Source: the human T2T-CHM13v2.0 reference genome, Homo sapiens. From it: a stretch of DNA of 64,000 nt. Where the stretch lies: the NCBI RefSeq assembly GCF_009914755.1, contig NC_060925.1. One strand, given 5' to 3'. The number at the start of each line of letters is the position of its first letter. The stretch's first letter is position 1. The translations under genes and the position numbers were made by a program. The notes under the pieces were generated by a model. It saw nothing but the letters and a program-made list of their open reading frames with translations. It was not told the origin of the DNA and did no database searches. Below are positions 54,201 through 57,200 of the stretch, piece after piece.

Positions 54201-57200
54201 TGGAACAAAATAGAGGCAATATGAATACTCATCTAAGGCCAATGCCAGCACTCATGATGATAATAATAATGATACTGATGGTGACAGGAATGATAATGGG
54301 ATGGACAGGGAGCTCTGGGAGGCCAGGGCCCACTCGGCCTGTACACGACGCAGCACACAGTAAATAATTAATGCTTCTTGAATGACTGAGTGAAGTACCA
54401 AAAACTAGGCCAGCATCTAGACACAAGGTCAAGGAAGCCCAGAGAAAAGGCACTAGAGAAACCCTCCCAGGCGAGACAGCTCCTCTGACAGGGGTCAGGG
54501 GCCAGGGGTCAGGGGTCAGGGCCCGCTGAAGGACAGGGGCAGAGCTGAGTTCAGTCTCAGCTGTGCTCTGACCTGAACATGAGACCCCAGGCAAGTCTCT
54601 ACCCACCGTGAGCCTCGGTCTCCCCATTTGTGTCATAAAGGGCCTTGACAAAGGGCCCTCTGATATTTTGGGATTCTATGACACCCCTATAATCCCCCCA
54701 AATCCTTGTTACCTTGTCCCCCAGGAAGGCCCGGGGCAGCTGCCAGTAATAGAGGCTTCCAGGAAGCAGAGAGAAGCCTTCGTAGGAGAGAGAGAACTAG
54801 GAGGGAAGGGCAGGTGGTAAGAGCCGAGGGGAGCAGGGGTGGGGGTGGGAGGGCGGAGGTGGTTCCGGCAGGGGTGGACCGTCATGGGAGGGAGGCCTGG
54901 TGGCAGGGCAGAGAGACAGAGCCCCCCACTCCCACCCGACAGTGCGGGTCCTGGCCTTGCTCTTTGGACGACTTTCTTCCCAATCCCGGCCCAGGTCCCC
55001 AGCTGCTCTCTCTGGGCGTGGCCTGGGTCGGCTTCTCCTCCCATCTGGTGGGTCTCTTTTGTGGACCAACGTTTACACAGCACATCAGTAAACAATTTCA
55101 ATGGGATGGCTCCTTTCATATGTATTTGAAAGAGAGTAACCAGCCTGAGTTGGTACATGATTGATTTAAGAGAAAATTGGAAAGAAATAATAGTCCAAGT
55201 AGTTCACAGAAATTGGTGAAGTTGGTTCAGAAATGACTGAAGTCTAGAAAGCATGGTGGGTGGGGATCCCTTGATGGGCACCTTGGCACATACCTGAGAG
55301 CCTGGTGAGAAAGACAGAGAAGCTGAGGAAGAGGAGGAGGAGGAGGAAGAAGAAGGAGGAGGTGCTGCTCGCAGAGCAGCTGCAGGCTGGGGATGAGGAG
55401 AGAGCCCCTGGGGAGGGGGTTGGGGTTGGGCAGCAAAGCTGGACAGGAGCTGCCAGATCTCAGCATCCATCCGTCTCTGAGCCTCGTCCACCTGGGGGAC
55501 CAGGAGCCGAAGAGCGGCAGAAGGGAGCAGAGAGGGACAGAAAGGACGTCCGTGAGGCTTCACCTCCCCACGGGCCCAGCCAGCCACCCGCTCTGCACTG
55601 TCTGCTCACAAGTGCTGATACCTGGCACTCTGGCCCTTGTACCCACTGCCCTCTTGTTCCTCCTGAGCTAGGCGGGGATATCCCGGGATGGGTTTGGCTG
55701 CCTATGGGCCGTGACTGATGGGAGAAGCCCTACAAAGGGTGCCCAGCAAGGGAGGGGCAGAAGTGCTGGAGGCAGCCCCAGGGGCATCTGGACGGGGTTG
55801 TTGCTCCTCGGCCTGACTCTCTTTGTGTGCCCTGGCAACAGCCCAAGCCATTCATGGTTCTGGAATGTTTCCCAGGGGAGACACCAGAGCAGACCAGGCA
55901 TCAGGCTGGGGCCTGGCCTGGCATAGGGGAAATGGCCCAGGAAAGCTGGAGTCTTCGCTCAGGTGCCTGCCTGGACTCAGCTCTCTGGTCTCCTCGCTGT
56001 GGCCCTAGGTACAACCTGTCCTAGCCAGGTCCTCAGTTACCTGTGATGCCCGCTGTGCCCAGTCCCTGCCCTCTGGGGGCTCTGGGATCCTCCCAGCTGT
56101 CACGGCTGCCCGCAACTGCTCCTCTGAGAGGGATGTGCGGTTCTGATGAAATGGAGGGAGCAGGCGAGCTAAGACCTCCCAAAGTCCTGGAGCTAGAGCC
56201 ATGGGCAGGGTCCTCTACCCACGGACATGGTAGTCAGAAAGGCCCACACTAATTAGGAAGAAAGATGCATGCCCCCCCTCTCCAGGCTGGCACCCAAGGG
56301 TTAACTCCAGGCCGCCCACATGCACACAGAGGGTTCATGGTGGTTGCTTGAGAGGCAAGGCCAGGGGAACCCGGGGGGCTAGATACAGTCATGTGGATTA
56401 GCATCGGGTTAGTCTCCTTGCTACCTCAGTTGCCATTCTGACTTCAGACAGTTGGCACCAGGACCAGACCACACAGCAGGTGAGGCAAGGTGAGGCACAT
56501 ACCCTCCTGGCTCCAACCCTGGGGTCATGGGACACCGCCTGGATTCATGCAGACCCCCAATGCCTTGGGCACTGCGCATCTCCCCACGCAGGGCTGGGAG
56601 CACCCGAGAAGGCACCACGCCCCACCACACCAACTTCACACCACGCACGTCCTGGGCCTACCTGGTGAGCCCGGCGCATCCGCGCAAAGTACGCCTCCCC
56701 CTGTGGGGCGCAGGGAAATGCCAGGACAGGAGACAGAGATAGGTCTGAGAATTGCAGGACAGGGCAGCAGGGAGGCCAGGAGATAGCGAACCCCAGAAGG
56801 GAGAGGGGAGAAGGGACCAGAAGGCAGCCAGCCCCGGGAGAAGCCTGGAGTACCTGGCTGTGTCCAACGAACAGGGATAGGGCAACCCCAACCCCAGAGC
56901 GTGGGTGCCACCGGATGCCCGTGCTGCTCAAGAACACATTTGGGCAGGCTGTCCCAGAGCCCACCCCTGAGCCCCTGCCCCCGACAACACCATCACACCA
57001 TCGCCACCACCATCATCACCACCTTTCCACCAGACCCTGTTCTGGAGTAGCAAAGACAGGTTCACCTCTGACTGGCAGAGTATTTGTTTTTTTTTTTTTT
57101 TTTTTTGAGACAGGGTCTTACTCTGTCACCCAGGCTGGAGTGCAATGGTGCAATTATGGCTCACTGCAACCTCCCCATCCTGGGTACCAGCGATCCTCCC

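What the first reader, a model, noticed from the sequence alone, without database searches (positions are those of the whole stretch)
54713..54796. Intronic 84-nt segment is a paralog of the L4-domain 'YWQLP..GDK' segment
Seen: [28 protein letters not shown] aligns without gaps to the end of exon 33 ([28 protein letters not shown]) and of exon 23 ([28 protein letters not shown]). It ends at the same GAC AAG|gt donor position. Retained motif residues with diverged DNA indicate an old duplicate under protein-level selection. This is the strongest evidence that the cassette is coding. Inference: it either re-supplies this L4 segment after the inserted loop or is mutually exclusive with exon 33.
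Basis: partly seen in the sequence, partly recalled or inferred. Interest (0 to 1): 0.8.

Follow-up and report, generated by a model that had tools for sequence, protein, structure and literature searches.

The report
Perlecan's spare L4 strand exon
An 84-base optional exon inside a human perlecan (HSPG2) intron is an old, conserved copy of the end of the preceding exon, and it probably lets a large optional loop be spliced into a laminin-type domain without breaking that domain.

Summary
Window 54713-54796 (- strand) has an AG acceptor and a GT donor. It encodes 28 residues that align without gaps to the last 28 codons of exon 33 (BLOSUM62 score 65) and of exon 23 (62). The largest score in 2000 shuffles was 45, and the next best site in a six-frame scan of the window scored 30.

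It is a real coding exon, annotated by RefSeq, and the last of four in-frame insert exons in intron 33. Orthologues came from rodent, bat, deer, cat, cheetah and a marsupial, and from unnamed perlecans 49-63% identical to human. The core Y-W-Q-L-P..F.G-[DN]-K is kept. Conservation stops at the donor (0.82 mean identity in the exon, 0.19 in intron read-through).

All four retrieved models that reach both flanks contain exon 33, the insert and this exon joined to exon 34. Pfam Laminin_B then starts its uninterrupted match at the copy. This favours "re-supply" over mutual exclusion.

Still open: expression level, dN/dS, and which copy sits in the fold. Both AlphaFold runs were uninformative. Six of seven named non-human models read through the donor as separate LOC genes. 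I found no description in the papers searched.

The parts
54713..54796 (-). The finding ('33f'): an 84-nt, phase-0 alternative exon encoding 28 residues. It is a paralogue of the last 28 codons of exon 33 and the last exon of the insert.
   Evidence: The hub's RefSeq table lists exactly these coordinates as an exon of other HSPG2 transcripts.
58015..58098 (-). The last 28 codons of constitutive exon 33 (full exon 58015-58206), in the third L4 domain. This is the neighbouring segment that 33f copies.
62058..62141 (-). The last 28 codons of exon 23 (second L4 domain). Same register and same GACAAG|gt donor.
56662..56700 (-). Insert exon a, 39 nt, [13 protein letters not shown]. It has canonical AG/GT sites.
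   Evidence: It is present in P0008, P0013, P0015, P0018, P0027 and P0030.
56041..56142 (-). Insert exon b, the conserved short form, which starts NRTSL. RefSeq's longer form runs to 56214.
   Evidence: The short form is used in P0008 and in all other species retrieved.
55294..55491 (-). Insert exon c, 198 nt. It encodes an invariant [21 protein letters not shown] stretch followed by a Pro/Ser-rich tract with a serine run.
   Evidence: AlphaFold predicts a helix at P0008 residues 105-131, with pLDDT about 80 for residues 111-130.
51541..51633 (-). Constitutive exon 34 ([10 protein letters not shown]...), the exon to which 33f is joined.
   Evidence: The junction GDK|VAAYGG is in P0008. The equivalent junctions are in P0027, P0030 and P0038.

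Best explanation
What is shown:
- 54713-54796 is a genuine, anciently conserved alternative coding exon of HSPG2.
- It is a partial duplicate of the 3' end of exon 33: 28 of its 64 codons, including the phase-0 GACAAG|gt donor.
- It is the obligatory last exon of an optional in-frame insert (exons a, b, c, then 33f; 141 residues with the conserved short exon b) spliced between exons 33 and 34, inside the third laminin-IV (L4/Laminin_B) domain of perlecan.
- In the models retrieved that reach both flanks, it is co-included with exon 33, not exchanged for it.

What is inferred about how it works:
- The exon 33/34 junction falls inside the conserved L4 element W-x-L-P..F.G-D-K|V..Y-G-G.
- The insert pushes the original copy of that element away from exon 34.
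- The duplicate puts an equivalent element directly in front of exon 34 again. The domain can then still be completed, and the helix-containing, Pro/Ser-rich insert is displayed as a surface loop.

Origin (inferred): a tandem duplication of the exon 33 end, before mammals diverged from the non-mammalian vertebrate-level lineages represented by P0027 and P0038.
For: - The paralogy is far above chance, and all four insert exons have canonical splice sites.
- All insert exons are phase 0 and multiples of three.
- P0008, an NCBI record named 'heparan sulfate proteoglycan 2, partial [Homo sapiens]', is letter for letter exon 33 + a + short b + c + 33f + exon 34.
- Of 18 proteins with E<=0.01, 8 contain 33f: human, Arvicanthis, Hipposideros, Cervus, Felis, Acinonyx, Sminthopsis, and one unnamed 1002-nt contig with b-c-f already spliced.
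- The alignment of those 8 has Y-Y-W-Q-L-P, F-L-G and K invariant.
- A profile search of 1.84 billion representatives gave 74 hits at E<=1e-3. By my reading, about 24 of the 66 new ones carry a 33f-type segment. Three long ones (P0027, P0030, P0038) have exon-33-type copy, insert and 33f-type copy joined to the exon-34 sequence. These proteins are only 49-63% identical to human perlecan.
- 33f orthologues resemble each other more (0.54-0.79 mean identity) than they resemble exon-33-type segments (0.38-0.43).
- Conservation is confined to the exon: 0.815 mean identity over 45 pairs, against 0.193 in the read-through beyond the donor over 28 pairs.
- In the last 12 columns, the columns conserved in 33f are those conserved in other L4 segments (rho 0.84, p 6e-4).
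- Pfam Laminin_B matches P0008 best at 194-235 (33f + exon 34 = profile 1-43). In P0038 it matches 298-431 = profile 1-136 of 136, starting at the 33f copy. In the insert-less P0031 it starts at the exon-33 copy.
- The solved L4 structures 9i5a and 4yep also align to 33f + exon 34.
Against: - Of the 7 non-human mammal-type models with 33f (six named species plus the unnamed contig P0016), none joins it to exon 34. Six read through the donor into the intron (V-T-R.. or V-M-G..) and one (Arvicanthis) ends differently. The six named ones are annotated as separate LOC genes, not as HSPG2.
- Full-length named isoforms could not be searched. The 'longer' searches stopped at 2000 residues and found none between 414 and 2000.
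- I have no read counts, so inclusion may be very low or tissue-restricted.
- Nothing here shows that an insert at GDK|V would be harmful without the copy, nor which copy enters the fold. In the poor P0038 model, the exon-33 copy had pLDDT about 70 and the 33f copy 31-45.
- The first 16 residues of 33f are weakly constrained in the marsupial (FSLAHKAFSQPPERV). They show no column-wise agreement with other L4 segments (rho 0.01).
- Sequence alone does not show that exon 33 was the source. 33f is as close to the second-L4 segments of distant perlecan-like proteins (0.42-0.46) as to exon 33.
Confidence: 0.68

Rival explanations
1. Nested or truncating transcript. The a-b-c-33f exons belong mainly to a separate RNA made from within HSPG2 intron 33, or to HSPG2 transcripts that stop in the intron after 33f. 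On this view 33f is a terminal coding exon and not an internal adapter.
For: The six named non-human models with 33f are separate 'uncharacterized LOC', 'TPRXL' or similar genes, and 5 of them run past the donor into the intron. The Arvicanthis model has its own three N-terminal residues, which are not an acceptor read-through, and a different end. The 1002-nt contig behind P0016 has b-c-f spliced but keeps intron sequence on both sides. In human the frame stays open for 37 codons past the donor.
Against: A free-standing 140-170-residue protein has no evident reason to keep an L4 strand motif, the phase and the GACAAG|gt donor of exon 33 for this long. Human P0008 and the unnamed P0027, P0030 and P0038 join 33f to exon 34. 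RefSeq lists the exons under HSPG2 (hub table). There is no CpG island in human intron 33; CpG observed/expected is at most 0.41. The read-through tails are not conserved.
Confidence: 0.14
2. Mutually exclusive substitution. 33f replaces exon 33, as in classical tandem-duplicated exon pairs.
For: It is homologous to the neighbouring exon, has the same phase and donor, and exon 32>33f>34 would stay in frame.
Against: The lengths differ (84 against 192 nt). 33f lacks the first 36 residues of exon 33, which were modelled as three strands at pLDDT about 70 in P0038. All 4 models covering both flanks include both exons. HSPG2 is absent from the held supplementary files of two human catalogues of mutually exclusive or duplicated exons.
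Confidence: 0.04
3. Decaying relic. 33f is a leftover partial duplicate, occasionally spliced as noise and picked up by automatic annotation, with no function.
For: The donor lacks the consensus +5 G (gtaaca). No paper found describes the isoform. DNA identity to exon 33 is only 45/84.
Against: The open frame, splice sites and core motif are kept from human to marsupial, and in perlecans 49-63% identical to human. The adjacent intron is not conserved.
Confidence: 0.04

Closest known systems
Alternative splicing from tandem exon duplication (mutually exclusive exon pairs). Catalogues: Hatje et al. 2017, PMC5740500, and Martinez-Gomez et al. 2022, PMC9741552. I saw the search listing with abstracts and term searches of their held supplements.
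   Same: An alternative exon in the intron next to its parent exon. The protein similarity is old, the DNA has diverged, and phase and donor are the same.
   Different: Only the last 28 of 64 codons are duplicated. The copy is co-included with its parent rather than exchanged for it. It sits at the end of three unrelated insert exons. HSPG2 was not found in the held supplements of either catalogue.
L4 / Laminin_B (PF00052) domains of perlecan and laminins. Solved structures: 4yep/4yeq (laminin alpha-2 L4b) and 9i5a/9i5b (perlecan). Described as an antiparallel beta-sandwich in the Hohenester 2019 review, PMC6744579 (passages).
   Same: 33f carries the family's opening motif Y-W-x-L-P..F.G-x-K, and together with exon 34 it matches profile positions 1-43.
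   Different: It is a second copy of that motif within one domain, separated from the first by an insert of 113 residues in human.
Known perlecan splice variation: unc-52 isoforms in C. elegans and the human 'miniperl' and N- or C-terminal products (review PMC6266596, section 4 read in full); and an RBPMS-activated Hspg2 exon in rat smooth-muscle cells (PMC6613909 and PMC10570038, passages and one supplementary table).
   Same: Regulated alternative exons in the same gene family.
   Different: None of these lies in the third L4 domain. The rat event changes the product by 56 bp, which matches none of the insert exons (39, 102/174, 198, 84 nt). Its primers have no match in the window at up to 3 mismatches.
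Engineered 'alternate frame folding' proteins, in which a duplicated segment gives two exclusive ways to complete a fold. This is recalled from general knowledge and comes from no call.
   Same: One domain, two copies of the same structural segment, and only one can occupy the site.
   Different: This is a natural, alternatively spliced arrangement. Whether the two copies compete is untested.

Membership tests
Laminin_B / L4 domain segment (Pfam PF00052) | The sequence matches the Pfam profile above the curated cut-off | tested here: met
   In isoform context, P0008 scores 57.2 bits (cut-off 22.4), with the best stretch at 194-235 = 33f + exon 34 = profile 1-43. P0038 matches 298-431 = profile 1-136, starting at its 33f copy. 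The 28 residues alone gave no Pfam match at E<=10, as expected for so short a piece.
Laminin_B / L4 domain segment (Pfam PF00052) | The family motif [YF]-W-x-L-P..F.G-x-K is in register, directly before V/I-x-x-Y-G-G | tested here: met
   The junction to VAAYGG is in P0008. Column conservation agrees with other L4 segments in the last 12 columns (rho 0.84).
Laminin_B / L4 domain segment (Pfam PF00052) | The segment takes part in the beta-sandwich fold | tested here: inconclusive
   AlphaFold models of P0038 (mean pLDDT 46.1; L4 region below 50) and P0008 (46.6) did not fold the domain.
Mutually exclusive exon pair from tandem exon duplication | Homology to the adjacent exon with the same phase | tested here: met
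   The homology covers only 28 of the parent exon's 64 codons.
Mutually exclusive exon pair from tandem exon duplication | Similar exon length, so that one can stand in for the other | tested here: not met
   84 nt against 192 nt.
Mutually exclusive exon pair from tandem exon duplication | One and only one of the pair is present in a transcript | tested here: not met
   All 4 retrieved models that span both flanks contain both exons. Read-level data were not available.
Conserved coding cassette exon | Purifying selection at the codon level (dN/dS below 1) | not testable with these tools
   No orthologous DNA could be fetched. The protein-level proxy is 0.815 identity in the exon against 0.193 in the read-through.
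Conserved coding cassette exon | Junction reads to both neighbouring exons | not testable with these tools
   Only annotation and protein models were available: the hub's RefSeq table and P0008. One spliced b-c-f contig lies behind P0016.

The most novel reading that the evidence does not exclude
With the insert spliced in, the third L4 domain of perlecan becomes a natural two-state module. Either copy of the strand element can complete the beta-sandwich, so the insert's conserved helix, its N-x-S/T sequon and its R-x-R-R motifs are either displayed or hidden. If a proprotein convertase cuts at those motifs, the N-terminal, heparan-sulfate-bearing part of perlecan and the C-terminal part would be held together only by the shared domain, or would be released from each other. 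That would be a regulated break point in a basement-membrane proteoglycan, conserved across vertebrates.
Probability: 0.1. Interest if true: 0.85.

Novelty: new variant of a known kind. Interest (0 to 1): 0.6.

Why it matters
Perlecan is essential, and HSPG2 mutations cause skeletal and neuromuscular disease. A 2018 review treats human HSPG2 as lacking the functional isoforms known for the worm gene (PMC6266596).

An insert kept from human to marsupial, and in much more diverged perlecans, implies an unstudied isoform with its own function, placed inside a domain whose function is itself unknown (PMC6744579).

For variant interpretation, 54713-54796 and the three other insert exons lie in what the selected transcript treats as deep intron.

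More generally, this is an example of how a folded domain can accept a large optional loop: by duplicating the structural element that the insertion point would otherwise split.

Tried and rejected
- **AlphaFold, P0038** (867 aa, both copies, 10-row alignment A3): mean pLDDT 46.1, with residues 264-555 below 50. It gives no answer on which copy is in the fold. P0038 also contains repeated blocks that look like assembly artefacts.
- **AlphaFold, P0008** (human fragment, 13-row alignment A4): mean pLDDT 46.6. Only the exon-c helix reached about 80.
- **28-row alignment A2**: discarded. MAFFT placed the first and second L4 domains of long proteins against the two copies.
- **ESM Atlas**: no taxonomy and no relatives for the insert. 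Its structural rows for P0038 start at either about residue 221 or about 134-161, so they do not decide the copy question.
- **Source of the duplicate**: class-to-class identities do not separate exon 33 from a second-L4-type source.
- **BLASTN of intron 33 against the window**: no DNA-level repeat touches 54600-54900.
- **Rfam**: no match in 51600-58100.
- **Pfam on the insert alone**: nothing above cut-off.
- **Protein search, 414-2000 residues**: no hit.
- **Literature**: searches found no description of this insert. Lord et al. 2014 on HSPG2 transcripts is not held.
- **One script** hit the time limit and was rewritten.
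Full report
**1. The observation**

On the minus strand, window 54713-54796 reads [28 protein letters not shown]. It sits between a pyrimidine-rich ...ccctcctag acceptor and a gtaaca donor. The triplet just upstream is an in-frame TAG, so the reading frame opens exactly at the acceptor. Downstream, the frame stays open for 37 codons into the intron.

Numbering the 76 coding exons in the window from the annotated list gives:
- exon 33 = 58015-58206 (192 nt);
- exon 23 = 62058-62234;
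- exon 34 = 51541-51633.

All three are phase 0. All three segments end GACAAG|gt.

**2. More than chance**

- The ungapped BLOSUM62 score of the 28-mer is 65 against the exon 33 end and 62 against the exon 23 end, with 12/28 identities each. The next best of 3469 positions in the window-encoded perlecan scores 15.
- In 2000 shuffles of the 28-mer, the best score anywhere averaged 14.6 (sd 5.1) and never exceeded 45.
- Scanning all six frames of the window with the exon 33 segment (127,834 positions) gives only three positions at 40 or more: exon 33 itself, exon 23 and this site. The next best scores 30.
- DNA identity is 45/84 to exon 33 and 40/84 to exon 23, no more than exon 33 against exon 23 (42/84). 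The 60 nt on either side are at background, 16-19/60.
- The duplicate is therefore old and visible only at the protein level.

**3. Context in the gene**

The hub's RefSeq table lists four exons of 'other transcripts' in intron 33. Their translations are:
- exon a: [13 protein letters not shown] (56662-56700);
- exon b: a 58-residue exon (56041-56214);
- exon c: a 66-residue exon (55294-55491);
- the finding, 33f.

All are multiples of three with AG/GT sites.

A database search with exon b returned an NCBI record named 'heparan sulfate proteoglycan 2, partial [Homo sapiens]' (P0008, 236 aa). It is exactly exon 33 + a + a shorter exon b (starting NRTSL, i.e. 56041-56142) + c + 33f + exon 34. 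So the annotated human arrangement is co-inclusion. The insert is 141 residues with short b, and 165 with RefSeq's long b.

**4. Conservation in named species**

Searching with the insert part of P0008 gave 18 proteins at E<=0.01 among 8000 scored candidates.

Eight of the 18 contain 33f:
- human;
- Arvicanthis niloticus (rodent);
- Hipposideros larvatus (bat);
- Cervus canadensis (deer);
- Felis catus (cat);
- Acinonyx jubatus (cheetah);
- Sminthopsis crassicaudata (a marsupial);
- one unnamed protein from a 1002-nt contig in which b, c and 33f are already joined. That contig must derive from spliced RNA if its introns resemble the human ones of 549 and 497 nt.

The other ten stop in a read-through of the exon c donor or lack 33f.

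In the alignment of the eight, Y-Y-W-Q-L-P, F-L-G and K of 33f are invariant. So is the 21-residue stretch [21 protein letters not shown] except at one position.

Over ten mammal-type sequences, pairwise identity in 33f averages 0.815 (45 pairs, minimum 0.571). The translated intron from the fourth residue past the donor averages 0.193 (28 pairs, ungapped). Constraint therefore ends at the exon boundary.

**5. Deeper conservation**

A profile of the eight sequences was searched against 1.84 billion unnamed representatives. It gave 74 hits at E<=1e-3, 22 at 1e-10 and 4 at 1e-30.

By my reading of the motif listing, about 24 of the 66 newly returned proteins carry a 33f-type segment. The consensus over the 31 sequences used is y.LvYkGFSL....l.YWQLP..F.GdK.

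Three long proteins show the full arrangement:
- P0027 (4303 aa): exon-33-type copy, then a, b, c, then YSLIYKGFSLFPEGVFYWSLPKVFLGDK joined to VTSYGG.
- P0030 (641 aa): a and b, then 33f.
- P0038 (867 aa): c, then 33f.

The other roughly 21 are short proteins that run from G-[DN]-K straight into unrelated sequence, as a genomic open frame would. Two of them (P0061, P0068) have c spliced to 33f.

The composition of the insert therefore varies, but 33f always closes it.

P0027 is 48.8% identical to human perlecan over domains IV-V and 63% over the rest of L4-3. P0038 is 58-61% identical. I read this as non-mammalian vertebrate divergence. That is an inference, because the library gives no names.

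33f-type segments form their own class. They are 0.54-0.79 identical among themselves, against 0.38-0.43 to exon-33-type segments. The duplication therefore predates the split of these lineages.

**6. What the copy does for the domain**

- Pfam Laminin_B (136 positions) begins at the Y-W of this motif.
- In P0008 the best stretch is 194-235, i.e. 33f plus exon 34, matching profile 1-43. A second, short stretch is also reported.
- In P0038 the complete profile 1-136 is matched by residues 298-431, starting at the 33f copy. In the insert-less P0031 it is matched by 1018-1150, starting at the exon-33-type copy.
- The solved L4 structures (perlecan 9i5a and 9i5b; laminin alpha-2 4yep and 4yeq) also align to 33f plus exon 34.
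- In the last 12 columns, per-column conservation among 33f orthologues tracks that of 30 other L4 segments (Spearman 0.84, p 6e-4). In the first 16 columns it does not (0.01).

Because a, b and c are all in frame, 33f is not needed to keep the reading frame. Its retention as an L4-like element is best explained by a structural need to have W-x-L-P..F.G-D-K directly in front of V..Y-G-G. That last step is inference.

**7. What stays open**

- Both AlphaFold runs failed to fold the L4 domain (mean pLDDT 46.1 and 46.6). I cannot say which copy enters the sandwich, or whether the two compete.
- The only moderately confident element of the insert is a long helix over the invariant exon c stretch (P0008 residues 105-131, pLDDT about 80 for 111-130).
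- No orthologous DNA was available, so dN/dS was not computed.
- I had no expression data.

**8. Results against the reading**

- Of the seven non-human mammal-type models with 33f (six named species plus the unnamed contig), none joins it to exon 34.
- Six read through the donor. The Arvicanthis model has its own first three residues and a different end.
- The six named ones are filed as separate genes: 'uncharacterized LOC', 'TPRXL', and a Dictyostelium-style name.
- This keeps a nested or truncating transcript alive as a rival.
- Against that rival: human P0008 and three unnamed perlecans do join 33f to exon 34; the read-through tails are unconserved; human intron 33 has no CpG island (observed/expected at most 0.41); and a free-standing small protein has no evident use for an L4 strand motif.
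- Named full-length isoforms could not be looked for, because the word-indexed search stops at 2000 residues.

**9. Mutual exclusion**

It is frame-compatible but unsupported:
- The two exons differ in length (84 against 192 nt).
- 33f lacks the first 36 residues of exon 33.
- All four models that span both flanks have both exons.

**10. Literature**

- Searches for HSPG2 or perlecan with splicing terms returned reviews and two RBPMS papers.
- The 2018 review's section on variants, read in full, lists only 'miniperl' and N- or C-terminal products. It contrasts human HSPG2 with the multi-isoform unc-52.
- The RBPMS-activated Hspg2 exon in rat smooth-muscle cells changes the PCR product by 56 bp, which is not the size of any insert exon. 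Its primers are not in the window at up to three mismatches.
- Lord et al. 2014 on HSPG2 transcripts in mast cells is not held, so I cannot exclude that it mentions these exons.
- Within what I could search, the exon is annotated but undescribed.

**11. Verdict**

The exon itself is already annotated, so the novelty is limited to two points: the recognition that it is a conserved partial duplicate closing an optional insert in L4-3, and the mechanism this suggests. It is a new variant of duplication-based alternative splicing, of moderate to good interest.

Noticed in passing
window 56041-56214 (- strand): RefSeq's exon b (174 nt) is longer than the form used in the human record P0008 and in every other species (102 nt, 56041-56142, starting NRTSL). 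The short form has the better pyrimidine tract (ctccctccatttcatcag). The extra 24 codons are not conserved in the genomic open frames P0009 and P0010.
   Followed up: partly
window 55429-55491 (- strand), start of exon c: [21 protein letters not shown] is identical in 7 of 8 aligned mammals including the marsupial; one rodent residue differs. It has recognisable relatives (..D.EIWAL[IL]S.FS) in the diverged perlecans P0027, P0038, P0061 and P0068. AlphaFold models it as a helix with pLDDT about 80. No family match was found in Pfam or the ESM Atlas.
   Followed up: partly
window 56662-56700 and 56041-56142 (- strand): Exon a carries R-[ML]-R-R in 5 of the 6 sequences that cover it; the marsupial has RLRQ. 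The diverged sequences P0027, P0030, P0049 and P0067 end exon b with R-[VF]-R-R. These resemble proprotein-convertase sites; that consensus is recalled, not tested. Exon b opens with an N-x-[ST] sequon (NRT, NLT, NES or NST) in every sequence seen.
   Followed up: no
window 55300-55360 (- strand), end of exon c: A run of serine codons (tcttcttcctcctcctcctcctcttcctca) whose length differs between species, from about 9 to more than 25 Ser/Pro residues. It sits in a Pro/Ser-rich tract that looks like a flexible, possibly O-glycosylated linker.
   Followed up: no
proteins P0011-P0015, P0017-P0019: In cat, cheetah, bat, deer, rodent and dunnart, the insert exons are annotated as independent genes with misleading names (TPRXL, IF-2-like, DDB_G0277255, LOC...). 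They lie inside the perlecan gene in the human arrangement, so these are probably annotation artefacts worth correcting.
   Followed up: partly
window 54707-54712 (- strand), 33f donor: The donor is gtaaca, without the consensus G at +5. The read-through translations begin V-T, V-K, V-I or V-N in nearly all species. This implies A at +4 and a non-G at +5 throughout, i.e. a conserved weak donor, as is typical of regulated exons.
   Followed up: no
P0038 residues about 367-500 and 623-700: This unnamed perlecan fragment contains two exactly repeated blocks that look like assembly or gene-model artefacts. They probably contributed to the poor AlphaFold model.
   Followed up: no
rat Hspg2, rn6 chr5:155853492-155853543 (supplement of PMC6613909): A different, experimentally validated alternative exon of perlecan, activated by RBPMS, MBNL1/2 and RBFOX2 in vascular smooth-muscle cells. 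I did not determine its place in the human gene.
   Followed up: partly
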